Of a stretch of 64,000 bases of DNA, positions 9,141 through 61,205 are shown in pieces. The stretch's first letter is position 1. Every line of letters starts with the position of its first letter. Both the position numbers and the translations under genes were made by a program. Source of the stretch: Candidatus Levyibacteriota bacterium (GTDB lineage: Bacteria > Patescibacteriota > Microgenomatia > Levybacterales > GWA1-39-11); NCBI GenBank assembly GCA_050255815.1, contig JBLMVJ010000019.1, positions 26 through 64,025 of the forward strand. The letters run 5' to 3'. The notes beneath the pieces are model-generated. The model did not search any database. It worked only from the letters and a program-made list of their open reading frames with translations, and was not told where the DNA came from.

Positions 9141-10115
9141 TTATGGGTTGTTTTTTTCAAGTTCTACATCTGCTTTCACCATCATTTCAACCAGTTCTTT
9201 AAATGAAGTCTTTGGCTCCCATCCCAATACTTCCTTTGCCTTACTATAGTCACCAATCAGATAGTCTACTTCTGCAGGCCGCATATGTTCCGTTTTATTA
9301 GCTGTTACATGCTTCTCCCAGTCAGTGATTCCCACCGTCTTAAAGGCCACTTCCACAAATTCTTTGACTGAATGGTTTTCCCCGGTTGCTACTACATAAT
9401 CATCCGGCCTATCCTGTTGGAGCATCATCCACATGGCCTCTACATAATCCCCGGAAAAACCCCAATCCCGTTTTGGTTCCAAAGAGCCTAATTCAAGCTT
9501 CTCTTGTTTACCCAAACTAATCCTGGCAACAGCATTTGAAATCTTACGTGTAACAAACTCTAACCCTCTTCTGGGAGACTCATGGTTAAAAAGGATTCCT
9601 GAACAGGCAAACATATCATAGCTTTCCCTATAATTCAGGGTAATATAGTGACCATATACTTTTGCCACTCCATATGGGGATCTGGGATAAAAACGTGTTG
9701 TTTCTTTTTGGGGAGTCTCAGTCACTTTTCCAAACATCTCAGATGATGATGCCTGATAGAATTTAATTTTTTTATTTACCTGACGGATAGCCTCCAGCAT
9801 TCTGGTTACTGAAAGCGCAGTAAACTCCCCGGTTAAAACAGGCTGGCTCCAGGAGGCTTTCACAAAAGATTGTGCCGCCAGGTTATACACTTCATCAGGT
9901 TCTGAATTTATTAATGCGTCAGCAAGCGATCCCTGGTCAAGGAGGTCTCCGGGAATAATAGTGATCCGGTCCTGGATGTGTTTAATGTTTACAATATTTG
10001 GGGTTGAGAGGCGGCGGACTAAACCGTATACCTTGTATCCTTTCTTGAGAAGAAATTCGGCAAGATAGGAACCATCTTGTCCGGTGACACCGGTTATGAG
10101 TGCTTTTTTAGCCAT
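9141..10115 (-). CDS. gmd: GDP-mannose 4,6-dehydratase
   Basis: [41 protein letters not shown] and WMMLQQD align closely along the whole length with E. coli Gmd. Confidence 0.92.
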
Positions 10116-25549: not shown

Positions 25550-26275
25550 CTATGCATGCCCTACAACTACCGCAATAGAAATCCTTCCCCGTCTTTCCAC
25601 TGCAATATGCCATTCATTAATTCCAAATTGTCTTCTTAATGCATCAGTCTCCCCATATGTTCTGACCTGCATTCTTCCATCCTGCATGTAGGTTTCAGCA
25701 GTTCTCCATTTTACTCCCAGTGGATTTCCATTTCCCACCAAAATCTTAGCTACTGCTTCTTTTACCGCCCACCTATTCTTCAGTAGGTCTGGATCCCCAT
25801 TGCATTCCTTGATCTCAGCTTCAGTAAAAGCTCTTTCTGGACGTGCAAAAAGCCGGCTTGACTGCCTATCCGCATTACAATCAACTCCAACCCTTAAATT
25901 ATTTACTGAACCCGTATCTCCTACAACAAACCCCACTGCAATTCCTTCATCATGGGAAATACTTACTGCAAAAGAGTTTATTCCTCTTCTAGTAGCCTCC
26001 CTAAATGCTTCTCCTTCTAGCTTCATAAAGGGATCTCCCTGTTTATGTTTCCCAATCTGAATATCAGACAGGGGAACAGGAACTCCTAATATTCTGGATA
26101 CCCCTAGCTTAACAGCCAATTTACCAGAAAGGCTTTCCTCTCTAATAACATCTTTTCTTTTACTCGACTCAATTTCTTCCTGGGTAAACCATCTTCTATC
26201 CATACCTTTTGCAACTTCAGAGGACAGCATTTCTAATCTTATGAATTGTGCCGGTATAGGAGTTTCTATTTTCAT
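25550..26275 (-). CDS. 4'-phosphopantetheinyl transferase (Sfp-type)
   Basis: SISHDEGIAVGFVV, VGVDCNADRQ (GxD-type) and WAVKEAVAKIL (W/KEA motif) characteristic of PPTases. 241 aa, two-half architecture. Confidence 0.7.
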   Translation of the reverse strand: MKIETPIPAQFIRLEMLSSEVAKGMDRRWFTQEEIESSKRKDVIREESLSGKLAVKLGVSRILGVPVPLSDIQIGKHKQGDPFMKLEGEAFREATRRGINSFAVSISHDEGIAVGFVVGDTGSVNNLRVGVDCNADRQSSRLFARPERAFTEAEIKECNGDPDLLKNRWAVKEAVAKILVGNGNPLGVKWRTAETYMQDGRMQVRTYGETDALRRQFGINEWHIAVERRGRISIAVVVGHA

Positions 26276-26328
26276 GCCAGTATTGTACCAGATGGAAGAA
26301 AAAAAGACTTGTTAGAATTTTTGAGGAA

Positions 26329-27090
26329 TTAGAATGATACGAAGTATTGGATCTTTGCTTTAGACTGGATATCAGCTAGCCATGTCTGGAATTTTCCGGA
26401 AAGTTTTTGCTGCTGCAACTGGGTCCTCACAGAATCTCTGAGAGTCTTAGGATCTTCTGTGGAAGGGAATGAATCTTTATTCTGTTCTATGTATGCATCT
26501 ACTTCTTTATCTGACACCGTTGCATCTTTTGCAAACAATTTCTCAATCATTTTCTGGATTTTCAGCTGGTCTATAAGATCCGCGCGGGTTAAACCCTGCT
26601 GGTCCAATGCATCCTGCAGAGTCCTTCCCTGCTTTTTCAGGGCGTCATCAATTTTCTTAACTTCTGCATTTACTTCTGCATCTGTCACAGTGATATGTTT
26701 TTTATCCATTTCCTGGAGAATTAAATCTTTGGTGATCAGGGACTCAAGCGTTTTTTTGCCGTATGTTTTTTCTAATTGCTGGTCAACGGAAAGGCGGGTA
26801 ATAAGGTGACCATTTACAGTTGCGGCAATAAAAAATCCCCTAAAGATATAAATTAATACTGCTAACACTACCACTCCTATGATAATGGCGGCCTTTTTTG
26901 TAGAAATTCTTTTTGATGTTAGTTTTGCAGAAGTATTTGCCGGAGCTACAGCTGCTTTTGCAGGAGCTGATTTTTTAACTGCTGTCTTAGGAGCTGTCTT
27001 TTTAGCAGTGGTTTTCGTTGTTTTTTTAACGGTCTTAGTTGCCATAAGTAATAAGTTCCTTGTTTTCCTCGCCTCGGAAAATAATTTCAA
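26329..27090 (-). CDS. SurA-N/PrsA-like chaperone-domain protein, membrane-anchored
   Basis: Lys/Ala-rich N-terminus, one TM, then a helical domain resembling the SurA N-terminal region; no PPIase domain. Start may be MATKTVKK at 27045. Confidence 0.5.
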   Translation of the reverse strand: MKLFSEARKTRNLLLMATKTVKKTTKTTAKKTAPKTAVKKSAPAKAAVAPANTSAKLTSKRISTKKAAIIIGVVVLAVLIYIFRGFFIAATVNGHLITRLSVDQQLEKTYGKKTLESLITKDLILQEMDKKHITVTDAEVNAEVKKIDDALKKQGRTLQDALDQQGLTRADLIDQLKIQKMIEKLFAKDATVSDKEVDAYIEQNKDSFPSTEDPKTLRDSVRTQLQQQKLSGKFQTWLADIQSKAKIQYFVSF

Positions 27091-27149
27091 AAACCATTAT
27101 AGCACATTATGTAAAGTCTTAATTGCAAGAGTTTTGAACTCGTAACCCA

Positions 27150-27482
27150 TTAACTTTTTAACCTTTTAACTTTTCTTATCTCCTGGGCAAATTCCTCAAG
27201 TAGTTCTTTTGTTTTCTTTTTTATTTTTTCTTCTATACCTACCGTATTTTGTAATACGTGTTCCCAGATTTCTTTATGGTCATTTTCCCTGGTATTATGT
27301 ACAAATACTTTTTTATGTTCTTCCGGTAGCTCAGTTAAAATTACATCAAGCACCGTATAGTGAACGCTTGAATTAACATGGTGCATTAAATCCTCTTTCT
27401 CCTTCTGAGAAAGCCCCAATGAATCCAATTCATTTTCAACAATATCCAACTCGATTAAGTGAGAATAAAAAGAAGTCTTCAT
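27150..27482 (-). CDS. Hypothetical acidic helical protein (110 aa)
   Basis: Track ORF. Contains an ELDSLG motif but context does not fit ACP (see rejected). Confidence 0.45.
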   Translation of the reverse strand: MKTSFYSHLIELDIVENELDSLGLSQKEKEDLMHHVNSSVHYTVLDVILTELPEEHKKVFVHNTRENDHKEIWEHVLQNTVGIEEKIKKKTKELLEEFAQEIRKVKRLKS

Positions 27483-27543
27483 ATATTTCTTTAGTCAAAA
27501 ATAAAACTTTTAAATTTTACGTTGTAATTTTGCATTTTGAATT

Positions 27544-28464
27544 TTAAATTTTAACTTGATTCTTTGGTTGTATTGGTCCTAATGGAATACTATCAGTTGG
27601 GTCATCTATAAAAAAGTAGAGCACCGGTCCGCGCTGTGCTCCGTCTACCCGCTCTAAGTATCTCATAACTTCCGGGGATCCGCCCAAATGCTTTCCCGTG
27701 GATTCCCCCGGTCCGGCGTCTGCAATATCCACTATCATAGATTTTCCATTCTCAGGATTTACTACCAGCATTTTCCGGTATTTAAAAAACTCTATATACC
27801 GCTTTACATCATCATGGAATCCAGGTGCTAAAAATGTCTGGACCGCAATATAATATTTCTCCCTGTCTTTATCTTTCTGAGTTAAGTCAAACTTTGATTT
27901 TGCAAAATATCCCCATGCCCCTAAACCCGGCGCCATACCTGAATCTGAAAAGGTATTAAATTCTTCATCAGTATTAAAATGGCCTCCTCCTACCGAATCT
28001 CCTGGATAGAGTGCAAGATGCTGCTCTGCGCCTATGAGCCCGTAAGACCTGTTTAGCCTGATTCCCTGCAGTTCTGCTGAAATCGGCATATTAAAATCGC
28101 GTGAAAGGATTCCGGAAATTTGCTTTTCTTCTTCCGGAGTTAATTCCCGCACATCAGACGGCAATGCGCTGTGCAGATCTGAAATTAAAAACTCCGAAGA
28201 GGAAGGGGCAAACGCATGTTGTTCAACTGCGGGCAGTATTTTTGGAGGCAAGGAAGGTAGTGAATTGGTAAGGAGGATCATAGCTCCTAAACTACCGGCA
28301 GCAAGATTAGCAGGATACGTGGTTAATGCAGAAAGTGCACTCTTGTGTGTTTCAACCAGTTTATTTTTAATGTCTGCATGTTTTTGACTAAATACCGATT
28401 TTAAGTCCTGAAAAACAGAATCTCCCACACTGATATTGTTTCTTAAATAGAGGAGCAATGTCAA
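27544..28464 (-). CDS. RlpA-like double-psi beta-barrel (DPBB) domain protein
   Basis: C-terminal KMLVVNPENGKSMIVDIADAGPGESTGKHLGGSPEVMRYL resembles the RlpA/expansin DPBB core (v.NleNGksvvvri.DrGP...iDLS..A). N-terminal hydrophobic segment. Confidence 0.5.
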   Translation of the reverse strand: MTLLLYLRNNISVGDSVFQDLKSVFSQKHADIKNKLVETHKSALSALTTYPANLAAGSLGAMILLTNSLPSLPPKILPAVEQHAFAPSSSEFLISDLHSALPSDVRELTPEEEKQISGILSRDFNMPISAELQGIRLNRSYGLIGAEQHLALYPGDSVGGGHFNTDEEFNTFSDSGMAPGLGAWGYFAKSKFDLTQKDKDREKYYIAVQTFLAPGFHDDVKRYIEFFKYRKMLVVNPENGKSMIVDIADAGPGESTGKHLGGSPEVMRYLERVDGAQRGPVLYFFIDDPTDSIPLGPIQPKNQVKI

Positions 28465-28485
28465 GAAAAATGAGAATAGAGGAGA

Positions 28486-29589
28486 TTACGAAGCCCTGCC
28501 AAATCTCACTACTGCGCCTGCCGCCATTAATCCCGCCCCAAAACCAACCATCACGCTGGTATTCCCCTGATGGAGACTTCCCTCCCTGACCAGACGATCC
28601 ATAAGCTTTGGAATGGAAGCAGAAGACATATTTCCATCTTCCTGGTCCCGCCCCACCAGGCCATATTCCCCTTTTAGTTTTTTAGCCTGCCATTCAGTAA
28701 TTTTTCTGCTTCCCTGATGAAACAAAACAGCAGCTATATCTGAAGGATTAAGGCCGGCATCATCCACTAAAGACCTGGTAAAATCCGGTATCACCCTGGC
28801 CATTTTTTCCAAAACATGATGGCCATCCATATGCACTATTCCATCAGGTGAAACAGGCGCTCTTTTTATAAGGACTTGTCCTTTCAAAAGGGTAAAGTCC
28901 ACAGGCATTTGAAGAAGTTCATCTTCTTCCCTGGTAAAAGCATCCGTGGATTTTGCAGTGAGAATGGAAAGATCTTCCCCCAACGTAAAGGAAACCGCAG
29001 CTGCACCATCTGAAAAAATAGTCTGTGCCATATGCGGATCTCTTTCTCTGGATTCAGGATCTTCTAAATTCGCTAAATAGGGATGGTATTTTTCAGTTGC
29101 AACAAATAATACCCTTGCTCCCTCCAGCTCCTTTCCCTGTCTATGCAGCCAATCCAAACCCGCAGCAAAGCCTGAGCAGGCCATATGTATGTTTAACCTG
29201 TTTGAAGGCAGGACTCCTAAACGGTATGCATCATTTATTCTAAACGCTAGATCTTGTCCGGTAGGAAAACTGGAAGAGACCAATAATACGTCAGCGCCGG
29301 ATGGATGAAGACCTTCCACTGCTTTCATGGCCATAAAGAGCGGCGTCTCTTCCGGACTTGCTATAAACCGCTGTTTTACCCCAATAAGATCTTCCATCCC
29401 TTCCGCGGTTAATGGTTTTCCCGTACCTGAAGTAAGGCCCCAGGATACCATTTCTTCATTCGTAAGCACTCTTTTTGGCTGATATAAACTTGTTTTAACG
29501 GTAGGAAGCTGAGGAAACTCCCTATGTTCTACAATGTGCCTGAACTCTTGCAATGGACCGCGGGAAGGTCTAGAATCTGGTGAATACAT
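28486..29589 (-). CDS. 3-oxoacyl-ACP synthase III-like (FabH/KAS III family) condensing enzyme A
   Basis: Catalytic triad context: Cys in NIHMACSGFAAGLD, His in LFHQGSRKI, Asn in GNMSSASIP. FabH-like N-terminus. Confidence 0.8.
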   Translation of the reverse strand: MYSPDSRPSRGPLQEFRHIVEHREFPQLPTVKTSLYQPKRVLTNEEMVSWGLTSGTGKPLTAEGMEDLIGVKQRFIASPEETPLFMAMKAVEGLHPSGADVLLVSSSFPTGQDLAFRINDAYRLGVLPSNRLNIHMACSGFAAGLDWLHRQGKELEGARVLFVATEKYHPYLANLEDPESRERDPHMAQTIFSDGAAAVSFTLGEDLSILTAKSTDAFTREEDELLQMPVDFTLLKGQVLIKRAPVSPDGIVHMDGHHVLEKMARVIPDFTRSLVDDAGLNPSDIAAVLFHQGSRKITEWQAKKLKGEYGLVGRDQEDGNMSSASIPKLMDRLVREGSLHQGNTSVMVGFGAGLMAAGAVVRFGRAS

Positions 29590-29693
29590 AATTCTTTAAT
29601 ACTGCAAATTATACAGGAAGAAGAACTAATGTCTATAAGAAGTTCAAATTTTTCTTACATTTTAAAAACCCGTTTTAAGTTAAAGTAAAAACC

Positions 29694-30848
29694 ATGAGTA
29701 AAATTGAGAGAGAGAGAATACCCGCAATCACCGGAGTAGGCGCTGCATTTGGAAAAAATGAAATATCAAATGAGAGAGTGTCACAACTTCTTGGTATACG
29801 TGAAAAAACGATAGGACGAATGATGAGTATGACCGGAGCTGGAATCGAGCATAGAAGATGGGTTGACTCTTCACAGTTAGGGGTAACACAAACTCTAACA
29901 AACCCTAACGATCCAAAAGATCCTAATTACTGGAAAGAGCATGGACTAGAAGTTGCCGCATCTGATTTAGCCTCAGAAGCACTTCTCAGAGCATCGGAAA
30001 TGGCAGGAATTGATGTAAAAAATATTAAAGCTATTGTTGGCGCTTCAGGTTCACAAGATTTGAGAGGAGTCCCAATTGCAGCCATGATTCAGGATAAACT
30101 TGGACTCCCCAGAAGCACAAGAGCACATGATGTCTATTCCGCATGTCCTGGATGGCTTCAGGCGCTCAGAAACACGTACGACAGTTTACTTAGTCCTCTA
30201 ACTGAAGGAGGACCACAAGCTGCGATTGGATCTGAGGTGCTAAGCCCAATCCTAAGCAAAGAAAGGTCTTCACTTTTTGTACTATTTGGTGATGCAGCAG
30301 GAGCAACTGTTGTAGATAATGTAATACCTGATGAAGGAGCTCCAAAAGTTATGGCATTTGAATTTGGTTCAGATGGTTCTCTTGCGCAAGAATTGTGCAT
30401 GCCAGGAGGGGGGAGTAAATATCCAAGCAGCCAAGAAACTCTTGATGCAGATCTACACACTCTTTTAATGAATGGTCCTGTTGTAGCTGAGCACGCTGTT
30501 AACTACATGGCAGAAGCAACACAAGCAGCATTAAAAAAAGCGGGAATCTCAAGAGAAGATGTAGATTGGATTATCCCACACCAGGCAAATAGAGGAATTA
30601 TGGATGATACATACAAGAGAATTATGGGAGACACAGCAGATGCAGCGGGAATTCCCTATGGAAATATGATTGCAACGGTACATAAATACGGAAATACATC
30701 TGCCTCAACCATTCCTATAGCTATGGCAGAAGCAATCCAAGAGGGAAAACTGAAGAGGAATCAATTGGTCGTGGTTACTTCATTTGGAGCAGGATTTGTT
30801 TATGGAGCCGCCGTCCTCTCTATGGTCGGCCTCCCAAAGAAAGCTTAA
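29694..30848 (+). CDS. 3-oxoacyl-ACP synthase III-like (FabH/KAS III family) condensing enzyme B
   Basis: Cys in VYSACPGWLQAL, His in IIPHQANRGI, Asn in YGNTSASTIPIA. Divergently transcribed from enzyme A. Confidence 0.8.
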   Translation: MSKIERERIPAITGVGAAFGKNEISNERVSQLLGIREKTIGRMMSMTGAGIEHRRWVDSSQLGVTQTLTNPNDPKDPNYWKEHGLEVAASDLASEALLRASEMAGIDVKNIKAIVGASGSQDLRGVPIAAMIQDKLGLPRSTRAHDVYSACPGWLQALRNTYDSLLSPLTEGGPQAAIGSEVLSPILSKERSSLFVLFGDAAGATVVDNVIPDEGAPKVMAFEFGSDGSLAQELCMPGGGSKYPSSQETLDADLHTLLMNGPVVAEHAVNYMAEATQAALKKAGISREDVDWIIPHQANRGIMDDTYKRIMGDTADAAGIPYGNMIATVHKYGNTSASTIPIAMAEAIQEGKLKRNQLVVVTSFGAGFVYGAAVLSMVGLPKKA

Positions 30849-30854
30849 AGCTTT

Positions 30855-31772
30855 TTACTTTATCCCTAACATTCTGTTAATTAATTTTTTTGACCCTACT
30901 ACTGCTTTTATCCCCTCTATCCTTGCCACATCCTCATTATTTGAAATCACTCTGACCAGTTTTCCATCAATTCCTCTTTTTGACCCTTCGCCTGCTGCAT
31001 AATATGCAACACCATCTCCCTGCTTTAGCCTAACTCCGCCAAATTCAACCGGACCTACCTGCCCAAACAACGGCACAATTTCTCCATCAAAGCTCTCAGG
31101 AGAAAGCAAAGCAATACCTGCTGTTTGTGCTGCTGCCTCTATGATAAAATCTTCCGGCAAAACTTCAGGACTGTGGTCGTGCGAATATGCTACCGTAAGG
31201 CTTGAAATATTTGTTGTTTCATCCCCATTTTCATTTGTAATTTTGACATTATATGTCGCACTCTCTCTTGTTCTTTTCAATAATTCGGGGATAACGGTCA
31301 GCGAGTGTGTTCCATCAGCTAGAACAGGCCTATTAAACTGGGCAAGATCAAAACGTGCAAGTCTTGAAAAATGGCTATTTCCTGCATCCAGCTCTATTTC
31401 CTGTATAGCTTCAACTGCCGCTCTAATTTGTTTATGCCCGGGGAAAATAAGGGGAAAACCGTTTTTTATATTGAGATGACCACGGGCTTTTTCCGGAATT
31501 ACGGGAACTATTGCAGCAACTACTTTCCCTCCTTCAAAAATAAGTCCATCAGGATCTATCATAGGAAGTGCTCTGGGAAGTGTTACCTGATCTCCGGAAA
31601 CAATTCCTCTTCCTACCCCTACCGGCATACCTAAGATTTCAGCTCTTTGTAATGACTGTATTCCTATGGCATCCGGTGTTCCATACCACGTTCCCAGTGC
31701 TTTTTGTGCATCAATTAAACCGGTAAGGGCTCTTTCTGCAGATGTTTTTCCGGTTTCTGCTGGTTGTGTCAT
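30855..31772 (-). CDS. Tandem double-hotdog FabZ-like dehydratase-type protein
   Basis: C-terminal half aligns with FabZ (HDHSP..FIIEAAAQTAGI..YYAAGEGSKRG..GKLVRV). N-terminal half carries a second degenerate hotdog (FPLIFPGH..AAVEAIQ). Start set at MTQPAETGK (31772); the track start 31847 would overlap the FabG-like gene by 58 nt. Confidence 0.6.
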   Translation of the reverse strand: MTQPAETGKTSAERALTGLIDAQKALGTWYGTPDAIGIQSLQRAEILGMPVGVGRGIVSGDQVTLPRALPMIDPDGLIFEGGKVVAAIVPVIPEKARGHLNIKNGFPLIFPGHKQIRAAVEAIQEIELDAGNSHFSRLARFDLAQFNRPVLADGTHSLTVIPELLKRTRESATYNVKITNENGDETTNISSLTVAYSHDHSPEVLPEDFIIEAAAQTAGIALLSPESFDGEIVPLFGQVGPVEFGGVRLKQGDGVAYYAAGEGSKRGIDGKLVRVISNNEDVARIEGIKAVVGSKKLINRMLGIK

Positions 31773-31789
31773 ATGAAGTTGAAGTATAC

Positions 31790-32659
31790 CTATGCGAGAG
31801 TGAGAATGTGTCCGCTTTCCGGAAGTGTTGCAAGAAATGGCATGCACCTGGCAATTTCTTCAGGTTTAAATTCTTTTCCGGCAGGAAGTACATCCACAAG
31901 GCTCTGTTTATTGTCTGCTGACATAGTAGATGTTAAATCCGTATCAGTTAACCCTATTCTAAAGATAGCTGTTTTAATGCCTCTGGGTCCATACATAGGG
32001 TCTTGGGCAGCGACTTCAGCAACTGCCTCCATAGCGCGTTTTGATGCGGCATAATTTATCTGTCCGGGGAATCCTTCCTGCCCAACACTGGAATTAAATA
32101 TAATCATCCCTCCCTGAGGATCTTTATTTTTCATCATAACCCTGGCTGCTGCCTGGGTGACAAAAAATGCACTATCAGCATTTGTCCTCATAACGTCATA
32201 CCATTCTTCCGGCTTCATTCTCATGGTAATATTGTCCCGGATAGTTCCGGCATTATTTATAACCACATCTATCCGCCCTAAGCCTTCCACTGCCCCATCT
32301 ATTAACTGTTTTGCTCCTTCCGGAGTAGAGACATCTGCCTGGATAAAAATAGCCTCTCCGCCCTTTTCTTTTATGTTCTCAACCAAACGGCTTCCTCTTT
32401 CTTCATCTCTTCCGTTAATAACAACTTTCATGCCGTATTCTGTTGCAAGATGAATTGCGGTTGCTGCCCCAATTCCTCTGGTTGAACCTGTTATAACAGC
32501 AATCTTTCCTTCTAATTCACTTTTTTCAATTCTGGGAAGTTGGTCAGGAGAAGAAATAAAAACACCTAATCTTTTTGCAACGTTTTCCGGAGTAAAAGAA
32601 AAATCTTTTTTAAGGGTAATGCCCTGAGGAACACCGGGACGTACGTCTGGTTGAGTCAT
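31790..32659 (-). CDS. SDR-family 3-oxoacyl-ACP reductase-like (FabG-like)
   Basis: GKIAVITGSTRGIG cofactor motif, NNAG, and catalytic S...YAASK. ~45-aa N-terminal extension. Confidence 0.85.
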   Translation of the reverse strand: MTQPDVRPGVPQGITLKKDFSFTPENVAKRLGVFISSPDQLPRIEKSELEGKIAVITGSTRGIGAATAIHLATEYGMKVVINGRDEERGSRLVENIKEKGGEAIFIQADVSTPEGAKQLIDGAVEGLGRIDVVINNAGTIRDNITMRMKPEEWYDVMRTNADSAFFVTQAAARVMMKNKDPQGGMIIFNSSVGQEGFPGQINYAASKRAMEAVAEVAAQDPMYGPRGIKTAIFRIGLTDTDLTSTMSADNKQSLVDVLPAGKEFKPEEIARCMPFLATLPESGHILTLA

Positions 32660-50091: not shown

Positions 50092-51543
50092 TTATTCTTC
50101 TGGGGATTTTTTATCCGGTTTCAATGTGGGGAAAAAAACCATTTCCCGGACAGGCTTATCTATCAAAAGGGCAAAAAGTCTTTCAGAAACACCAAATCCG
50201 GCTGCCGGGGGCATACCATACTCTAATGCTTCTACAAAATCCTCATCCATCATTTGGGCTTCCTCATCCCCGGCTTCGCGCAGTTTCATTTGTTCTTCAA
50301 ACCGCTCCCGCTGGTCTATAGGGTCATTTAGCTCTGAAAATCCTTTACCCAGCTCTGAACCCATAGCCAGAACCTGCATACGCTGTACATTCTGGGGTCT
50401 GTCAGGCAAACGTTTTGCAAGAGGTTCAACTTCAACCGGGTGGTTGAGTACAAACATAGGCTGGACAAGTTTTGGCCTGATTGTCTTTTTATATAAATAA
50501 TCAAGAAGTCTACCCTTCCCTAAATTTGGCTCTACCTTTACATGCTTTTCATCCGCTAACTTATATAAATCTTCTACTGACAATTCTTCTATATGTATCT
50601 GCCAATGTTCATTTAATAATTCCGCGTAGTCTTTTCTGGGCCAGTTTCCTTCCCAGTTAATCTCCTGCCCATTCCACTGGGTTTTTAAACTTCCAAAAGT
50701 CTCCTGGATTACCTTTTTATACATATCTTCTACAAAATCCATGAGTTCAGAATAATCCGCATATGCCCAATAGAATTCCAGTTGGGTATAATCCTGCAAA
50801 TGCTCATCATCTATTCCCTCATTCCTAAATATTCTGCCTATTTCAAATACCTTTTCAAATCCGCCAACCAAGAGCCTTTTAAGTGGTAATTCTAGTGAGA
50901 TGCGAAGATATAAATCCATATCCTGGGCATTATGGTGGGTAACAAAGGGTCTGGCGTCAGCTCCTCCAGGAATTTGCTGTAAAACCGGCGTCTCAACTTC
51001 TAAAAATCCATGATCCACCATGTAATTTCTGATGCTTTGCCAGAATTTTGTTTTCTTTTTGAAATCATCCTTTACCTCAGGGTTCATCAAAAGATCCAGA
51101 TATCTTTTTCTAAGACGGGTTTCTACATCCTTTAAACCGTAAAACTCTGAAGGGAGAGGTAATAAGGATTTAGTAAGAAGCTGCCAGGAAGCCGGCATAA
51201 TAGAAATTTCTCCAGCTATGGTTTTCCCAACTTCACCTTCTACCTGGATAAAGTCACCTATATCTAAAAGCCTGAGGTTTTTAAAACCTTCCGGCCCCAG
51301 TATTTTTTTTTGGAAGAAAATTTGTATCTTTCCACTCTCATCTTTCAGGTCTGCAAAGGCAATATTACCATGCTCTCTATAGGAAAAAATCCTACCAGTG
51401 ACCGCTACGTTCTTTCCCTCTGAATCCAAAGCCTGGGCAACAGAATGAGTTCTTTTAGTTGTAGCAGGGTAGGGGTCTATCTGTAATTCTTTTAGTTTCT
51501 CTAATTTTTCTAATCGCGCTTTTTTAAAGTTCTGTTCGTCCAT
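50092..51543 (-). CDS. lysS: Lysyl-tRNA synthetase, class II
   Basis: N-terminal OB anticodon-binding domain, class II motifs (FRNEGIDDEHL.., ..GGFGVSERLFALL). 483 aa. Confidence 0.93.
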   Translation of the reverse strand: MDEQNFKKARLEKLEKLKELQIDPYPATTKRTHSVAQALDSEGKNVAVTGRIFSYREHGNIAFADLKDESGKIQIFFQKKILGPEGFKNLRLLDIGDFIQVEGEVGKTIAGEISIMPASWQLLTKSLLPLPSEFYGLKDVETRLRKRYLDLLMNPEVKDDFKKKTKFWQSIRNYMVDHGFLEVETPVLQQIPGGADARPFVTHHNAQDMDLYLRISLELPLKRLLVGGFEKVFEIGRIFRNEGIDDEHLQDYTQLEFYWAYADYSELMDFVEDMYKKVIQETFGSLKTQWNGQEINWEGNWPRKDYAELLNEHWQIHIEELSVEDLYKLADEKHVKVEPNLGKGRLLDYLYKKTIRPKLVQPMFVLNHPVEVEPLAKRLPDRPQNVQRMQVLAMGSELGKGFSELNDPIDQRERFEEQMKLREAGDEEAQMMDEDFVEALEYGMPPAAGFGVSERLFALLIDKPVREMVFFPTLKPDKKSPEE

Positions 51544-52056: not shown

Positions 52057-52090
52057 AAAAAACCCCGCTGGTGCGGGGTCCGGTTTTTAA
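52057..52090 (-). terminator. Rho-independent terminator (effectively bidirectional) downstream of the PPAT/DPCK gene
   Basis: AAAAAAA-CCCCGC-tggt-GCGGGG-tccgg-TTTTT. On the minus strand the hairpin is immediately followed by TTTTTTTAT. Confidence 0.7.
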
Positions 52091-52190
52091 AAGTCCACAA
52101 AAACCAAACCCCTACGGGGTCTTCTTGGACTTCTTAGAAATAGTATTGAATGACATATTTTCCAAATAGTAACACTGCTGTCATGCAGTG

Positions 52191-53189
52191 TCAAGTTTTC
52201 TTTTCAAACCGGCTCATTAGTTCATATGCCTCATCTTTTATTTCTTCTGTCACCTCAAGCCTTACCATTCCTGCCCCCGGCTGCCCATAAAAAATGGTAA
52301 AGCCAAGAGGAGCGCAGAGTAGGGCAGGCAAAACAGCAAGATCCTCTTCCCCTTCTACAATAATCACTACCCTAGGCCCTCTCTCGCCCGGGAAGAAAGC
52401 TTGGGATGATTGCCTAAGAACTTTACGGATGGCTTTCGTTAGCTCTGAACTTACATTGCCTGCCGTATTTACTACCTTTATTTTTTCAGACGGTGGAAAC
52501 TCCCCTTCCGGAATTTCTTTGCGCTCTACTTTGTTATCAATAATTGCCAACTGAGGAAAAATTTCCGCATCCAGAAATGTTTTTGTGGTCCTATCACCTA
52601 CGGTTATTAATTTTTTAGAATTTATCCGGGGAGGTTCTGTAATGATTTCTCCCCAAATATCCTGTAGTTTTTTGCGTAGGGTAGAGGGGAGTAGAAAAGT
52701 ACTTTCCAACCATTCCTGTTTTACAAATATCCGCCCTGCTCTGTTAATTTCCCCATTCCTTATTCTGGTAGAGGTTATTGGTTCACCATCTTCTGCTAGG
52801 GTTAATTGAAAAATCTCCAGCGGCAATTCAGGCATACCCTCCTCTACCCTTTTTTTATTTACCCCTCTACCCGCTTCTTCCGTTGCCGTGGTTACCGCTA
52901 GGGAATCGAATTTATAGGCAGGATTCAGCGTAGGGCCAAAGTGGTCATCTAGGGAAACAATTTCTATATCCTCTGCTCTCCCTGTGCTTTTTAAAAAGGC
53001 TTCAAGGGCATGCAGCCGGATATCATATGCTTCAACTCCTAAGCCTCCTTTATACGCATTAATATAGGTATCAGAAGTTAACCCAAGCACAACTTTTTCG
53101 CCTAGGCTTACTATAAAATTAAGAAAATCTTTGTGTCCTTGGTGGAGCCGGTCAAATGTGCCGCCTGCAGCTACTAAATGATATGCCAT
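52191..53189 (-). CDS. Fused archaeal-type phosphopantetheine adenylyltransferase (N) + GTP-dependent dephospho-CoA kinase DUF359 (C)
   Basis: N-terminal cytidylyltransferase motif AAGGTFDRLHQGH. C-terminal ITVGDRTTKTFLDAEIFPQLAIIDNKVERKE...VVIIVEGEEDLAVLPALL matches the DUF359 dephospho-CoA kinase pattern (vGDvvt..ivDgk..R). Confidence 0.7.
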   Translation of the reverse strand: MAYHLVAAGGTFDRLHQGHKDFLNFIVSLGEKVVLGLTSDTYINAYKGGLGVEAYDIRLHALEAFLKSTGRAEDIEIVSLDDHFGPTLNPAYKFDSLAVTTATEEAGRGVNKKRVEEGMPELPLEIFQLTLAEDGEPITSTRIRNGEINRAGRIFVKQEWLESTFLLPSTLRKKLQDIWGEIITEPPRINSKKLITVGDRTTKTFLDAEIFPQLAIIDNKVERKEIPEGEFPPSEKIKVVNTAGNVSSELTKAIRKVLRQSSQAFFPGERGPRVVIIVEGEEDLAVLPALLCAPLGFTIFYGQPGAGMVRLEVTEEIKDEAYELMSRFEKKT

Positions 53190-53306
53190 TAAGGGAAATT
53201 ATATACCACTCGCAAATAAATTCGCATCGGGTATTACTTCTTCTAAGCTCATTTGCAGCAAAATAGTTGCAAATTGAGCAAGAAGAGTATAGTTGAGACT
53301 GGTGTT

Positions 53307-54251
53307 TTATACCATCCCAAACTTCTTCTTGAGGTTTACTACCATGTCTTCCGTCATCTTAGGTAAATCAAATTCATGTTTCCATCCCCAGTCGGAACGT
53401 GCTTTTGAATCATCTATAGTCATAGGCCAGGAATTTGCAATAGCTTGCCGTTTATCCGGATTATAGGTAACCTTTAAGTCAGGAATATGTTTTTTTAATT
53501 CTTCTTCTAGTTCTTTCGCGGTAAAACTTATAGCGGTCAGGTTATAGCTGTTTCTGATAGTAATCTTATGAGAATCTGCTTCCATGAGGTCTATAGTTGC
53601 CTTAATGGCATCATCTATATACATCATAGGAAGCGTAGTATCAGGTCCTACAAAACATTCATATGCCCCTTTTTGCAATCCATCATAAAAAATTGCAACC
53701 GCGTAATCTGTAGTGCCGCCACCGGGAGGAGTTTTCCAGGAAATAATACCGGGGTATCTTACGGATCTGACATCTAACCCAAACTTAATATTATAATACC
53801 TGCACAATCCTTCCCCGGAATATTTTGTCACACCATAAATAGTGGTAGGCTCCAAAACCGTATGCTGGGGTGTTTCAACCCTGGGAGTGGAAGGGCCAAA
53901 AGCGGCAATTGAGGATGGCCAAAAAATCTGCAAGCCATACTCAACTCCCAGATCCAGGATATGTTTTAGTCCATTCATGTTAATATCCCATGTCACGCTT
54001 GGATCAATTTCACCTTTTACTGATAACAGAGAGACCAGATGATATACGGTGTTAATTTGATATTTTTCAATAATCTTTTTTAATGTTTCTTTATCCCTGC
54101 TGTCAGCCTGCTCCAGAATACCGTCAAAATCTTTTGGTATGGTTGAATGGCCTACAGCCACTACATTTTCTTTCCCATACTTTTTCTGCAAGGCTGGGAC
54201 TAATTCTGACCCTATTTGTCCAAATGCGCCGGTAACTAATATTTTTTTCAT
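53307..54251 (-). CDS. tdh: L-threonine 3-dehydrogenase (UDP-glucose-4-epimerase-like SDR type)
   Basis: KILVTGAFGQIGSEL and YGVTK motifs. Adjacent to kbl. Start set at MKKILV (54251); the track ORF starts 54281. Confidence 0.85.
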   Translation of the reverse strand: MKKILVTGAFGQIGSELVPALQKKYGKENVVAVGHSTIPKDFDGILEQADSRDKETLKKIIEKYQINTVYHLVSLLSVKGEIDPSVTWDINMNGLKHILDLGVEYGLQIFWPSSIAAFGPSTPRVETPQHTVLEPTTIYGVTKYSGEGLCRYYNIKFGLDVRSVRYPGIISWKTPPGGGTTDYAVAIFYDGLQKGAYECFVGPDTTLPMMYIDDAIKATIDLMEADSHKITIRNSYNLTAISFTAKELEEELKKHIPDLKVTYNPDKRQAIANSWPMTIDDSKARSDWGWKHEFDLPKMTEDMVVNLKKKFGMV

Positions 54252-54324
54252 TTTGCGTACCCTTTGACAGGCTGAATACAATATCTAATTCAGTCTGTCA
54301 TCCTGTGTACTCACAGGACCTACC

Positions 54325-55494
54325 TTAGTTCAAAAGCCCAAGTTCTTTCGCTGTCTCTTCAAATGCCTTAATCCCGAAATCCAGATCCTCCCTGCTGTGT
54401 GCCGCTGAAGGAATTACCCTTACTCTTGCCGCACCCTTTGCTACCATGGGAAATTTAATTGCTGATGCAAAAACATTCTTCTCCATGAGCTTTGCGCTAA
54501 ATGTTGCGGCAATTTCTTCATCCTCTAACATGACGGGCGTTATAGGAGATTTACTTTTTCCGGTGTCAAAACCTAATTCCTGAAACTTGCTTTTAATATA
54601 TTCCGTATTCTCCCACAGTTTTTTTACCAACTCGTCAGATTCCTGCAATATCTTGAAGCCTTCTAGCGCTGCTGCGGTATCAGGGATAGTGAGCGTATTT
54701 GAAAATAAAAATTGCCTCGCATTCTTTTTATAGTACGCAATTAATTCTTTTTTACCGGTAATAAATCCCCCCATAACGCTAAAAGCCTTAGAGAGGGTAC
54801 CTACTTCTATATCTACCTGCCCGTGCAGTCCAAAATGGTCTACTATACCACGCCCTCCGCGTCCCAGTACTCCTTCTCCATGCGCATCATCTACCATGGT
54901 TAACGCCCCATACTGTTTTGCCAGTTCTACAATTTCCGGCAAGGGAGCCAAATCTCCATCCATAGAAAAGACGCCATCAGTTACAATTAGGATCTTTGCG
55001 TTTTCAATCTTTATGGCTTCTTTAAGCTGTTCTTCCAAACTTCCCATGTCCAAATGCTTGTAAATGAATTTATTCTTTACCTGGGAAAGCCTCACGGCAT
55101 CAATAATAGAGGCATGGTTCAACTCGTCTGAAACTACTACATCTTCTTTTCCTATGATTGTTTGGATTGCTGCACAATTTGCCATATATCCTCCGGTCAA
55201 AACTATAGCGTCTTCTGCTTCTTTAAAGGCTGCAATTGTTTTTTCAAGCTCAACGTTTAAGATATTTGTACCTGCCAGAGTCCTATACCCGGTCCCCACT
55301 CCATACCGGTCTACTGCTTTCTTTACCGATTCAATTACCCTGGGATGGACGGCTAGCCCCAAATAATGGCTGGAACAGAAATTAAGCTTTTTGACACCTT
55401 TTACGGTAAGATATGCACCTTCTCCTGATTCAATTATTGCAGGAGAACTAGTAGTTTCCGGGGCCAATTTTTGGTAAAACACTGAAATATCCAT
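54325..55494 (-). CDS. kbl: 2-amino-3-ketobutyrate CoA ligase (glycine C-acetyltransferase)
   Basis: PLP-dependent alpha-oxoamine synthase family: TLSKAFSVMGGF lysine motif, DDAHG, and NFCSSHYLGL near the N-terminus. tdh-kbl pairing. Confidence 0.88.
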   Translation of the reverse strand: MDISVFYQKLAPETTSSPAIIESGEGAYLTVKGVKKLNFCSSHYLGLAVHPRVIESVKKAVDRYGVGTGYRTLAGTNILNVELEKTIAAFKEAEDAIVLTGGYMANCAAIQTIIGKEDVVVSDELNHASIIDAVRLSQVKNKFIYKHLDMGSLEEQLKEAIKIENAKILIVTDGVFSMDGDLAPLPEIVELAKQYGALTMVDDAHGEGVLGRGGRGIVDHFGLHGQVDIEVGTLSKAFSVMGGFITGKKELIAYYKKNARQFLFSNTLTIPDTAAALEGFKILQESDELVKKLWENTEYIKSKFQELGFDTGKSKSPITPVMLEDEEIAATFSAKLMEKNVFASAIKFPMVAKGAARVRVIPSAAHSREDLDFGIKAFEETAKELGLLN

Positions 55495-55606
55495 GGTTTA
55501 GGATTAATTGTAACGAAGGTTAACCCTACGGTCAATTTTTTGAACAAATTGATCTTTTTTATACTTTTTGTTAAAATATTAACACTTCCCGCATAAAGAG
55601 GTTTCA

Positions 55607-60734: not shown

Positions 60735-61205
60735 ATGAGGAAAATAATTGAATATAAAGACCTTCAAGCCTCGTTAAACCGCATTAAATCCCAAGGGACC
60801 ATTGTTTTGGTGGGTGGTTGTTTTGATGTCTTACATAAAGGACATATAAAATTCCTCACAAAAGCACAAGAACATGGAGATATTTTAATGGTAATGCTGG
60901 AAAGTGATGAAAATGTGCGGGCAAGCAAGGGTCCGGGGCGGCCGGTAAATAACCAAATCCACCGTGCCCATATTCTGGCGGCATTAAAACAAGTTGATTA
61001 TGTTCTTCTCCTCCCTTCCCTCAAAACAGATCTGGAGTACTATGAGCTTGTAAAAAAACTGGAACCTGATATAATTGCAGTGACTGAAAATGATCCCGCC
61101 TATAAGAAAAAGGCTGAACAGGCGGAAATGGTTGGAGGAAAAGTGGTTGAGGTTATAGAAAGGCTCCCACACTCCACAACAAAAATATTAGAACAGGTTA
61201 ATTAA
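60735..61205 (+). CDS. Cytidylyltransferase-like nucleotidyltransferase (RfaE domain II / TagD-like)
   Basis: VLVGGCFDVLHKGHIKFL (HxGH) motif. 156 aa. Confidence 0.7.
   Translation: MRKIIEYKDLQASLNRIKSQGTIVLVGGCFDVLHKGHIKFLTKAQEHGDILMVMLESDENVRASKGPGRPVNNQIHRAHILAALKQVDYVLLLPSLKTDLEYYELVKKLEPDIIAVTENDPAYKKKAEQAEMVGGKVVEVIERLPHSTTKILEQVN

What the first reader, a model, noticed from the sequence alone, without database searches (positions are those of the whole stretch)
52191..53189. Single-polypeptide archaeal-type PPAT + GTP-dependent dephospho-CoA kinase (DUF359) fusion
The N-terminus has the archaeal cytidylyltransferase-type PPAT motif (GGTFDRLHQGH). The C-terminal half matches the DUF359/TK0517-type dephospho-CoA kinase pattern (VGDRTT..IIDNKVERKE..). 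This would perform the last two CoA steps using archaeal-type rather than bacterial CoaD/CoaE enzymes. The fusion order mirrors bacterial/eukaryotic bifunctional CoA synthase but uses non-homologous parts. It is relevant because the window also encodes CoA-dependent enzymes (Kbl, PPTase, KAS III-likes).
Basis: partly seen in the sequence, partly recalled or inferred. Interest (0 to 1): 0.6.

Follow-up and report, generated by a model that had tools for sequence, protein, structure and literature searches.

The report
Fused archaeal-type CoA synthase in CPR bacterium
This gene of an uncultured Levybacteria (CPR) bacterium joins the two archaeal-type enzymes for the last two steps of coenzyme A synthesis into one protein; the same fusion is already known from marine archaea, but in bacteria public annotation names only its first half.

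Summary
Window 52191-53189 (minus strand) is one 332-aa ORF. Residues 3-156 are an archaeal-type phosphopantetheine adenylyltransferase (PPAT). Residues 165-329 are a full-length DUF359 domain, the family of the GTP-dependent dephospho-CoA kinase (DPCK) TK1697. All signature and catalytic residues are present and invariant in 120 homologues. The predicted structure (pLDDT 92) matches the solved DPCK 8JVC and archaeal PPAT 3DO8.

- The kinase is TK1697, not TK0517.
- Only the kinase half is non-homologous to the bacterial enzymes.
- The architecture is not new. PPAT-DUF359 fusions in uncultured marine archaea were the clue that led to the archaeal DPCK in 2019.

What is less appreciated is that the fusion is very common in CPR bacteria: Levybacteria, Roizmanbacteria and other Microgenomates. 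Public records there name only the PPAT half. Roizmanbacteria carry a longer NMNAT-PPAT-DPCK triple fusion.

In Levybacteria the gene often lies next to tdh-kbl, which convert threonine to glycine plus acetyl-CoA.

GTP use, enzyme activity and absence of canonical CoaD/CoaE from the rest of the genome could not be tested. Verdict: a new bacterial member of a known kind, of modest interest.

The parts
52191..53189 (-). Complete gene for the 332-aa PPAT-DPCK fusion protein (NCBI MGE5041877.1).
   Evidence: ORF list and translation. 100% match to a Levyibacteriota MAG protein.
52722..53183 (-). N-terminal archaeal-type phosphopantetheine adenylyltransferase domain, residues 3-156.
   Evidence: NF001985 scores 138 bits against a cut-off of 104. 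PF01467 is matched. PDB 3DO8, Archaeoglobus PPAT, gives E 9e-19 and Foldseek TMt 0.80-0.87.
53133..53165 (-). GGTFDRLHQGH, the nucleotidyltransferase (H/T)xGH signature, residues 9-19.
   Evidence: Read directly from the sequence. G10, T11, D13, H16, G18 and H19 are 100% conserved, and F12 99%, in 120 homologues.
52758..52778 (-). ITSTRIR, the second nucleotidyltransferase signature (ISxTxxR type), residues 138-144.
   Evidence: Read directly from the sequence. R144 is invariant and I143 is 97% conserved. It aligns to ISSTRIK of 3DO8.
52203..52697 (-). C-terminal DUF359 / arCOG04076 dephospho-CoA kinase domain, residues 165-329. It is full length relative to TK1697.
   Evidence: PF04019 covers 1-126 of 126 profile positions, E 1.3e-31. 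NF041125 positions 3-170 of 176 are matched at 93 bits. PDB 8JVC gives E 3e-20 and Foldseek E 1e-14, TMt 0.80.
52593..52595 (-). Asp199 codon, equivalent to catalytic Asp48 of TK1697 (VGD motif).
   Evidence: Alignment to 8JVC. The D48A phenotype is reported in PMC6650551. The residue is invariant in 120 and in 50 sequences.
52536..52538 (-). Asp218 codon, equivalent to catalytic Asp67 of TK1697.
52341..52343 (-). Asp283 codon in GEEDLA, equivalent to Asp125 of TK1697.
52278..52289 (-). YGQP motif of the DUF359 domain, residues 301-304.
   Evidence: Y, G and Q are 100% and P 98% conserved in the 120 closest homologues. The motif is YGHW in the three triple-fusion relatives (one search counts H at 303 in 3 sequences and W at 304 in 4).
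52106..52122 (-). Terminator-like hairpin plus T-run, about 70 nt downstream of the stop codon.
   Evidence: Consensus scan. This is a pattern match only, and the number found equals the shuffle expectation.
52060..52081 (-). Second, stronger terminator-like hairpin (9 pairs, 6 G-C) downstream. It reads as a hairpin on both strands.
   Evidence: pattern match only.
53198..53203 (-). Perfect TATAAT hexamer 9-14 nt upstream of the ATG, a possible own -10 element in the 117-nt gap to tdh.
   Evidence: Read directly from the sequence. No matching -35 was reported by the scan. Speculative.
53307..54281 (-). Upstream co-oriented gene for an SDR-type L-threonine 3-dehydrogenase. The true start is probably the ATG at 54251.
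   Evidence: PDB matches to L-threonine 3-dehydrogenases: 7CGV E 1e-128, 2YY7 E 5e-109. PF01370 is matched.
54325..55494 (-). Upstream co-oriented gene of the Kbl/BioF family, 2-amino-3-ketobutyrate CoA ligase (glycine C-acetyltransferase).
   Evidence: TIGR01825 scores 491 bits and NF005394 445 bits, both just under their equivalog cut-offs. PF00155 is matched. Kbl lies directly upstream of the fusion in L001, L003, L083 and L085.
55507..55535 (-). Promoter-like site (TTGACC, 17 nt, TACAAT; 10 of 12 matches) upstream of kbl. It is a candidate promoter for a kbl-tdh-fusion transcript.
   Evidence: pattern match only. The number of sites is not above the shuffle expectation.

Best explanation
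The gene encodes a bifunctional CoA synthase of archaeal type in a CPR bacterium (Levybacteria).

Inferred reaction scheme:
- The N-terminal domain adenylylates 4'-phosphopantetheine with ATP to give dephospho-CoA.
- The C-terminal DUF359 domain, a thiamine-pyrophosphokinase-like Rossmann variant and not a P-loop kinase, phosphorylates the 3'-OH of dephospho-CoA to give CoA. By analogy with TK1697 it probably uses GTP.

Shown here: domain identities, intact signature and catalytic residues, predicted folds, and the wide distribution and conservation of the fusion.

Inferred from family membership and from the logic of the fusion: the two activities and the GTP preference.

More tentative (about 0.4-0.5): the fusion is the organism's only PPAT and DPCK. 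It would finish CoA from 4'-phosphopantetheine or pantetheine scavenged from a host or community, as proposed for some mycoplasmas. It would supply the CoA needed by the adjacent Tdh-Kbl threonine-to-acetyl-CoA route and by the PPTase and KAS III-like enzymes of the same contig.
For: Domain identity and fold:
- Both domains pass curated family thresholds.
- PDB sequence matches are to GTP-dependent DPCK 8JVC (E 3e-20) and archaeal PPAT 3DO8 (E 9e-19).
- The AF2 model has pLDDT 92.2 and pTM 0.87. Its top fold hits are 8JVC (TMt 0.80) and 3DO8 (TMt 0.80-0.87).

Catalytic residues:
- D199, D218 and D283 align to TK1697 Asp48, Asp67 and Asp125. Ala mutants of these impaired complementation.
- These residues and HxGH and R144 are invariant in 120 fused homologues. 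The Asp residues are also invariant in 50 CPR, archaeal and TK1697 sequences.

Distribution and precedent:
- The same domain order occurs in marine group II archaea, where it was used to predict DPCK function.
- The family is large and under selection. A profile search gave 1100 representatives at E<=1e-30, and the best 150 are all full-length fusions.

Physiological context:
- No CoaD, CoaE or CoaBC was found by tblastn in the window or in 80 related loci, nor by Pfam across the window.
- CoA users lie on the contig: Kbl, a PPTase and two KAS III-like proteins.
- tdh-kbl adjacency is kept in several Levybacteria even where the Tdh type differs.
- PPAT+DPCK-only scavenging is discussed in PMC8721197.
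Against: - No biochemical data exist for any bacterial member.
- The DPCK half scores only 93 bits on the Thermococcales equivalog model, whose cut-off is 300. It is therefore a divergent member, about 32% identical to TK1697.
- Determinants of GTP specificity could not be checked, because the 8JVC paper is not in the library.
- Absence of canonical CoaD/CoaE from the whole genome is untested. Only 64 kb of this MAG and +/-10 kb flanks of relatives were readable.
- tdh-kbl adjacency is seen in about 8 of 14 Levybacteria-type loci. It could reflect general synteny rather than function.
- Promoter and terminator matches are not above shuffle expectation.
Confidence: 0.85

Rival explanations
1. 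The fusion is enzymatically what it seems but physiologically redundant. It would be an accessory copy acquired from archaea, in genomes that also keep canonical bacterial CoaD and CoaE, and possibly CoaBC and PanK, elsewhere.
For: Only 64 kb of the genome could be examined. Absence in the window and flanks says little about the rest of the genome. From my own recollection, not tested here, CoaD and CoaE are among the cofactor genes often retained in reduced bacterial genomes.
Against: The gene is conserved at a syntenic position across many Levybacteria species, with invariant active sites. That pattern fits a housekeeping gene in very small genomes better than a dispensable duplicate.
Confidence: 0.2
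2. Only the PPAT half is catalytic. The DUF359 domain has become a regulatory or nucleotide/CoA-binding module, or phosphorylates a different substrate, as its distant relatives the thiamine pyrophosphokinases do.
For: The score is below the DPCK equivalog cut-offs. The family is only distantly related to TPK and its chemistry has been characterised in a single archaeon.
Against: All three Asp residues required in TK1697 are invariant, as are the VGD, GEEDLA and YGQP motifs. The whole TK1697 length is covered and the fold matches 8JVC. Fusion to the enzyme that makes the DPCK substrate is the classic Rosetta-stone signal, and it proved correct in archaea.
Confidence: 0.07
3. The N-terminal domain is a different nucleotidyltransferase of the PF01467 superfamily, such as a glycerol-3-phosphate or heptose-1-phosphate transferase, NMNAT or RibL-like FAD synthase. 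The protein would then make another nucleotide-linked product.
For: PF01467 is functionally diverse. Weak secondary hits to rfaE domain II and to glycerol-3-phosphate cytidylyltransferase appear.
Against: The PPAT subfamily model NF001985 is by far the best hit and is above its cut-off, at 138 bits against 27 or less for the others. The best solved relative is the archaeal PPAT 3DO8. In triple fusions a separate NMNAT domain sits next to this domain, so the two are distinct functions.
Confidence: 0.04

Closest known systems
PPAT-arCOG04076 (DUF359) fusion proteins of uncultured marine group II/III euryarchaeota (Poseidoniales), e.g. AIF21550.1; Shimosaka, Makarova, Koonin and Atomi 2019, PMC6650551
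   Same: The domain order is the same (PPAT at the N-terminus, DPCK at the C-terminus). The size is similar, about 330-345 aa. The same catalytic residues are present.
   Different: The host here is a CPR bacterium, not an archaeon. Identity is only 27-31%. The CPR PPAT halves look closer to stand-alone archaeal PPATs (E about 1e-28 to 1e-30) than to the group II fused ones (about 1e-13 to 1e-17). Trees do not resolve whether the two groups share one fusion event.
TK1697, GTP-dependent dephospho-CoA kinase of Thermococcus kodakarensis (PDB 8JVC, 8JVF, 8JVG)
   Same: The C-terminal half is the same family. It is about 32% identical, with the same fold (TMt 0.80), and Asp48, Asp67 and Asp125 are conserved.
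   Different: TK1697 is a stand-alone 177-aa protein. The nucleotide preference of the CPR domain is unknown.
Archaeal-type PPAT (COG1019; TK2128; Archaeoglobus fulgidus 3DO8)
   Same: The N-terminal half shares the HxGH and ISSTRIR motifs and the fold.
   Different: Here it is fused to the next enzyme of the pathway and encoded in a bacterium.
Eukaryotic CoA synthase (COASY), a bifunctional PPAT-DPCK
   Same: The two activities and the domain order are the same. By my recollection of the literature, the PPAT halves are homologous; this was not tested here.
   Different: The COASY kinase half is a P-loop CoaE-type DPCK (PF01121). It is unrelated to DUF359.
Bacterial CoaD plus CoaE
   Same: They catalyse the same two reactions. 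CoaD shares the PF01467 fold.
   Different: They are separate genes. CoaE is a P-loop, ATP-dependent kinase with no similarity to this protein.

Membership tests
Archaeal-type PPAT (NCBIfam NF001985 / COG1019; Pfam PF01467) | Profile match above the curated cut-off over the whole domain. | tested here: met
   NF001985 scores 138.1 bits against a cut-off of 104, residues 3-156 against profile 4-154 of 157. PF01467 scores 40.4 bits against 21.
Archaeal-type PPAT (NCBIfam NF001985 / COG1019; Pfam PF01467) | (H/T)xGH and ISxTxxR nucleotide-binding signatures. | tested here: met
   H16-Q-G-H19 and I138-TSTRI-R144 are present. H16, G18, H19 and R144 are invariant in 120 homologues.
Archaeal-type PPAT (NCBIfam NF001985 / COG1019; Pfam PF01467) | Fold of a solved archaeal PPAT. 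| tested here: met
   Foldseek against 3DO8 gives E 5.5e-9 to 1e-8 and TMt 0.80-0.87, with a model of pLDDT 92.
Archaeal-type PPAT (NCBIfam NF001985 / COG1019; Pfam PF01467) | Adenylyl transfer from ATP to 4'-phosphopantetheine. | not testable with these tools
   Needs an enzyme assay or complementation.
GTP-dependent dephospho-CoA kinase (arCOG04076 / DUF359 / PF04019; TK1697) | Full-length Pfam PF04019 match above the gathering score. | tested here: met
   109.2 bits against a cut-off of 25, profile positions 1-126 of 126.
GTP-dependent dephospho-CoA kinase (arCOG04076 / DUF359 / PF04019; TK1697) | NCBIfam equivalog NF041125 (Thermococcales DPCK) cut-off. | tested here: not met
   93 bits against a cut-off of 300. 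That model is lineage-specific. The protein is a family member but not an equivalog by that rule.
GTP-dependent dephospho-CoA kinase (arCOG04076 / DUF359 / PF04019; TK1697) | Conserved Asp48, Asp67 and Asp125 shown by mutagenesis to matter in TK1697. | tested here: met
   D199, D218 and D283 align to them and are invariant.
GTP-dependent dephospho-CoA kinase (arCOG04076 / DUF359 / PF04019; TK1697) | Fold of the solved enzyme. | tested here: met
   Foldseek against 8JVC gives E 9.8e-15, TMt 0.80 and 32% identity over 175 columns.
GTP-dependent dephospho-CoA kinase (arCOG04076 / DUF359 / PF04019; TK1697) | GTP as preferred phosphate donor; phosphorylation of dephospho-CoA. | not testable with these tools
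   Needs biochemistry. The structural paper on GTP recognition is not in the held library.
Fused PPAT-DPCK of uncultured archaea (Shimosaka et al. 2019) | PPAT and DUF359 in one ORF, with PPAT N-terminal. | tested here: met
   The same order is seen in 18 group II archaeal loci.
Fused PPAT-DPCK of uncultured archaea (Shimosaka et al. 2019) | Common origin (monophyly) with the archaeal fusions. | tested here: inconclusive
   In NJ trees of each half, the group II clade is supported (98 and 76) but its relation to the CPR sequences is not. No stand-alone archaeal DPCK set was included.
Fused PPAT-DPCK of uncultured archaea (Shimosaka et al. 2019) | Archaeal host. | tested here: not met
   The contig is annotated Candidatus Levyibacteriota. 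It carries bacterial genes: SecA, FtsX, FtsE-like ABC, RF, VanW, TsaE, and sugar-nucleotide (rhamnose-pathway-type) enzymes.
Canonical bacterial/eukaryotic DPCK (CoaE, PF01121) | P-loop CoaE domain. | tested here: not met
   No PF01121 hit. BLASTP against E. coli CoaE shows no similarity.

The most novel reading that the evidence does not exclude
A large part of the Microgenomates branch of the CPR (Levybacteria, Roizmanbacteria and relatives) may have replaced bacterial CoaD and CoaE altogether. The replacement would be an archaeal-type, probably GTP-using PPAT-DPCK fusion exchanged between CPR bacteria and archaea.

It would be their only route to CoA, fed by scavenged 4'-phosphopantetheine. 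In Levybacteria it would be transcriptionally tied to threonine-to-acetyl-CoA catabolism (tdh-kbl).

In Roizmanbacteria the same module is extended by an archaeal-type NMNAT. This would give a trifunctional enzyme that finishes both NAD and CoA, an undescribed 'cofactor-finishing' polyprotein of ultra-small symbionts.
Probability: 0.35. Interest if true: 0.55.

Novelty: new member of a known kind. Interest (0 to 1): 0.35.

Why it matters
Metabolic reconstructions of CPR bacteria that rely on bacterial CoaD and CoaE models, or on the current product name 'pantetheine-phosphate adenylyltransferase', will miss the last step of CoA synthesis in Levybacteria, Roizmanbacteria and relatives.

Recognising the DUF359 half as a dephospho-CoA kinase would have three consequences:
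- It closes that gap.
- It shows that a supposedly archaea-specific enzyme is widespread in one bacterial radiation.
- It points to 4'-phosphopantetheine as a likely metabolite taken from hosts.

It does not reveal a new enzyme type or architecture.

Tried and rejected
1. I considered the second cytidylyltransferase-like gene (60735-61205) as a possible canonical CoaD. I rejected this. Its best NCBIfam hit is RfaE domain II (110 bits), its PPAT models score 42 bits or less, and there is no TIGR01510 hit.

2. I ran tblastn with E. coli CoaD, CoaE and CoaBC against the window and all 80 related loci. Nothing was found except one weak CoaD-like hit in L009. This is uninformative about whole genomes.

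3. I built NJ trees with 100 bootstraps for each domain to decide between a single fusion plus inter-domain transfer and independent fusions. Deep nodes are unsupported. The first attempt timed out.

4. I searched for stand-alone DUF359 genes in the archaeal PPAT-only loci. None lay within the flanks.

5. I searched the literature for any report of this fusion, or of archaeal-type CoA enzymes, in CPR, Patescibacteria, Levybacteria or Roizmanbacteria. Nothing relevant was found.

6. I looked for the 8JVC structure paper to check guanine-binding residues. It is not in the library.

7. The afdb50 fold library was unavailable.

8. Promoter and terminator scans gave counts no higher than shuffles, so I treat operon structure as only suggestive.

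9. I ran no further search on stand-alone archaeal DPCKs. A domain of about 135 aa at about 30% identity was unlikely to resolve the origin.
Full report
**Observation**

The interval 52191-53189 is exactly one minus-strand ORF of 332 codons, running from ATG to TGA.
- GGTFDRLHQGH at residues 9-19
- VGDRTT at residues 197-202
- IIDNKVERKE at residues 216-225

The identical protein is deposited as MGE5041877.1, 'pantetheine-phosphate adenylyltransferase'. It comes from a Candidatus Levyibacteriota MAG on a 64.5-kb contig. The window is therefore from a CPR/Patescibacteria bacterium of the Microgenomates group. The rest of the window agrees with this. It is about 40% G+C and carries bacterial SecA, FtsX with an FtsE-like ABC ATPase, a release factor, VanW, TsaE/TsaD, sugar-nucleotide enzymes and class II LysRS and SerRS.

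**What the protein is: sequence evidence**

- Pfam finds PF01467 at residues 8-145. It finds a complete PF04019/DUF359 domain at residues 201-329 (E 1.3e-31, 109 bits against a cut-off of 25).
- NCBIfam places residues 3-156 in NF001985, archaeal-type PPAT (138 bits against a cut-off of 104).
- NCBIfam aligns residues 165-329 to positions 3-170 of 176 of the Thermococcales GTP-dependent DPCK model. The score is 93 bits, well below that lineage-specific equivalog cut-off of 300.
- Against PDB sequences, the only strong hits are 8JVC, GTP-dependent dephospho-CoA kinase (E 3e-20), and 3DO8, Archaeoglobus PPAT (E 9e-19).

**What the protein is: structure evidence**

An AlphaFold2 model built on 35 homologues is confident, with mean pLDDT 92.2 and pTM 0.87. 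Foldseek returns 8JVC, 8JVG and 8JVF first (E about 1e-14 for the first three hits; TMt 0.79-0.82), then 3DO8 (TMt 0.80-0.87). Bacterial CoaD structures and other cytidylyltransferases follow at E about 1e-5.

**Catalytic residues**

Shimosaka et al. 2019 (PMC6650551) showed that TK1697 is the archaeal DPCK and that it uses GTP. They also showed that D48A and D67A, and more mildly D125A, impair complementation. In the alignment to 8JVC these residues correspond to D199 (VGD), D218 and D283 (GEEDLA).

All three are invariant in the 120 closest homologues. They are also invariant in a 50-sequence set that spans CPR, marine group II archaea and TK1697. On the PPAT side, G10, T11, D13, H16, G18, H19 and R144 are invariant and F12 is 99% conserved. 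Nothing suggests that either half is degenerate.

**How common it is and where it occurs**

- The 90%-identity database search gave 599 hits. The best 120 all carry both domains and are 305-353 aa long.
- A profile search of 1.84 billion 50%-identity representatives gave 1100 proteins at E<=1e-30. The best 150 are all end-to-end fusions.
- A scan of GTDB species genomes found full-length fusions in Levyibacteriota, Roizmanbacteria, Microgenomates and other Patescibacteria.
- The same scan found them in marine group II archaea (Poseidoniales, Thalassarchaeaceae).
- Other archaea gave PPAT-only matches.
- Several MAGs labelled 'uncultured Gammaproteobacteria' or 'Pseudomonadales', and one labelled 'Vitreimonas', also carry it. 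They have 33-45% G+C. L005 and L008 share the full Levybacteria gene order, and most of the others fall among CPR sequences in the trees (L041 could not be placed). I take these labels to be wrong.

**Comparison with what is known**

The architecture is not new. Makarova et al. (PMC6393860) and Shimosaka et al. (PMC6650551) state that fusions of arCOG04076 with PPAT in uncultured group II/III euryarchaeota were the reason to test TK1697.

E. coli CoaD is in the same Pfam family as the N-terminal half and is hit structurally. CoaE is an unrelated P-loop kinase.

What I could not find in the searchable literature is any mention of this enzyme in CPR bacteria. Public product names cover only the PPAT half: 'pantetheine-phosphate adenylyltransferase', 'cytidyltransferase-like protein' and, once, 'UPF0218 family/phosphopantetheine adenylyltransferase'.

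**Origin**

NJ trees of the two halves recover the group II archaeal fusions as a clade, with bootstrap 98 for PPAT and 76 for DPCK. They do not resolve how this clade relates to the CPR sequences.

The PPAT half of the window protein is more similar to stand-alone archaeal PPATs (E about 1e-28 to 1e-30) than to the group II fused ones (1e-13 to 1e-17). That could mean independent fusions, or fast evolution in group II. An archaeal origin of both halves is the natural inference, because the families are otherwise archaeal. The number of fusion events and the direction of transfer remain open.

**Genomic context and likely physiology**

The gene is the last of three co-oriented genes:
- kbl (54325-55494; BioF/Kbl family, 445-491 bits)
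- an SDR-type L-threonine 3-dehydrogenase (53307-54281; 7CGV E 1e-128, 2YY7 E 5e-109)
- the fusion

The gaps are 43 nt and 117 nt. There is a promoter-like site upstream of kbl, and two terminator-like hairpins follow the fusion. These are pattern matches only and are not enriched over shuffles.

In L001 the same kbl-tdh-fusion order is found. In L003 kbl is directly upstream of the fusion. In L004, L022 and L063 kbl is 1-3 kb away. In L083 and L085 a Zn-dependent ADH-type dehydrogenase, presumably the classical Tdh, and kbl sit immediately upstream, with a 9-nt gap to the fusion. The threonine-to-glycine-plus-acetyl-CoA pair is thus kept next to the CoA synthase even where the dehydrogenase type has been swapped. 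This is suggestive of a functional link. It holds in only about 8 of 14 Levybacteria-type loci and not in other CPR groups.

The window also carries a PPTase (25550-26275), two KAS III-like genes (28486-29589 and 29694-30848) and an SDR (31790-32659). The organism therefore clearly uses CoA and phosphopantetheine.

No CoaBC, PanK, CoaD or CoaE was seen in the window or in the flanks of relatives. A PPAT+DPCK-only organism would have to import 4'-phosphopantetheine, or pantetheine plus a kinase. This scenario has been discussed for mycoplasmas (PMC8721197). It remains an inference, because the rest of the genome could not be read.

**A related finding outside the window**

Three loci encode proteins of about 495-514 aa: L025, L031 (on a 971-kb Patescibacteria contig) and L036 (Roizmanbacteria). 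In each, an archaeal-type NMN adenylyltransferase precedes the PPAT and DPCK domains in one ORF. The NMNAT domain has the GRFQPFHxGH motif. It scores 130 bits on NF002243 against a cut-off of 127 in L031, and 117 bits in L036. It also matches TIGR01527.

A database search with the L031 protein gave 450 hits at E<=1e-20. The best 120 clusters all cover 96-100% of the query and are 463-527 aa long. Most are from Roizmanbacteria or Patescibacteria. They are named PPAT, NMNAT or 'hypothetical'. I found no paper describing this trifunctional arrangement. It supports the view that these small-genome bacteria bundle the last, nucleotide-adding steps of cofactor synthesis.

**Verdict**

The protein is a bacterial (CPR) member of an already described archaeal PPAT-DPCK fusion family. 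Its kinase half is not reflected in public annotation.

Activity, GTP preference, sole-route status and evolutionary origin are untested.

Interest is modest at 0.35. The finding is useful for CPR metabolic reconstruction and as an example of archaeal-type central metabolism in a bacterial radiation. It is not a new kind of system.

Noticed in passing
L031:9500-10990, L036:9485-10972, L025:9506-11050 (all + strand): A trifunctional ORF joins archaeal-type NMN adenylyltransferase, PPAT and DUF359 DPCK (495-514 aa in these three loci). It occurs in Roizmanbacteria and other Patescibacteria. The best 120 database clusters all cover 96-100% of the 496-aa query (463-527 aa). Public names cover one activity at most. 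In these three loci the DPCK motif is YGHW instead of YGQP. No paper describing it was found.
   Followed up: partly
window 53307-55494 (-); L083:7752-9991; L085:7785-9991: The tdh-kbl pair (threonine to glycine plus acetyl-CoA) lies directly upstream of the fusion. The dehydrogenase is SDR-type in the window and in L001 and L063. It is Zn-ADH-type in L083 and L085. This is an apparent non-orthologous displacement within a conserved cluster.
   Followed up: partly
window 50092-51543 (-) versus L083:12596-14113 and L085:12133-13671: At the same syntenic position, before Ham1-SerRS-SecA, the window has a class II LysRS (PF00152). Two related Levybacteria have a class I, archaeal-type LysRS (PF01921).
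   Followed up: no
window 60735-61205 (+): A second small cytidylyltransferase-like protein of 156 aa. Its best hit is RfaE domain II at 110 bits, below the cut-off of 181. It is not a CoaD. It is conserved between VanW and DUF192/TsaD in all Levybacteria loci. Its substrate is unknown.
   Followed up: partly
window 25550-32659: A cluster holds a 4'-phosphopantetheinyl transferase (25550-26275), two KAS III-like condensing enzymes (28486-29589 on the minus strand, 29694-30848 on the plus strand) and an SDR/ketoreductase-like gene (31790-32659), with several ORFs that have no Pfam hit. No ACP, KAS I/II or other FAS II genes were seen in the window. The product is unknown.
   Followed up: no
L005, L008, L011, L014, L015, L020, L027, L041, L048: GTDB species-representative MAGs are titled 'uncultured Gammaproteobacteria', 'uncultured Pseudomonadales' or 'Vitreimonas sp.'. 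They have 33-45% G+C. L005 and L008 share the full Levybacteria gene order, and the others except L041 fall among CPR sequences in the domain trees. The taxonomic labels look wrong. L027 is on a 1.41-Mb contig.
   Followed up: partly
L073:9995-10969, L078:3027-4034 (also L061, L062, L069, L070, L075): Thermoplasmata loci encode ORFs of about 305-335 aa with PPAT at the N-terminus and no detectable DUF359 domain. For L073 and L078 the C-terminal half looks like the NF002250 'PPAT/NTP phosphatase' type; this was judged from the sequence, not by a profile search. If so, it is a different PPAT fusion partner in a different archaeal lineage.
   Followed up: no
L009:10001-10945: A full-length fusion is 36% identical to the window protein. 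It lies on a 59% G+C contig titled 'uncultured archaeon LFW-144_1'. A weak E. coli CoaD-like tblastn hit lies just upstream on the opposite strand (9538-9828). The taxonomy and the meaning of this hit were not resolved.
   Followed up: no
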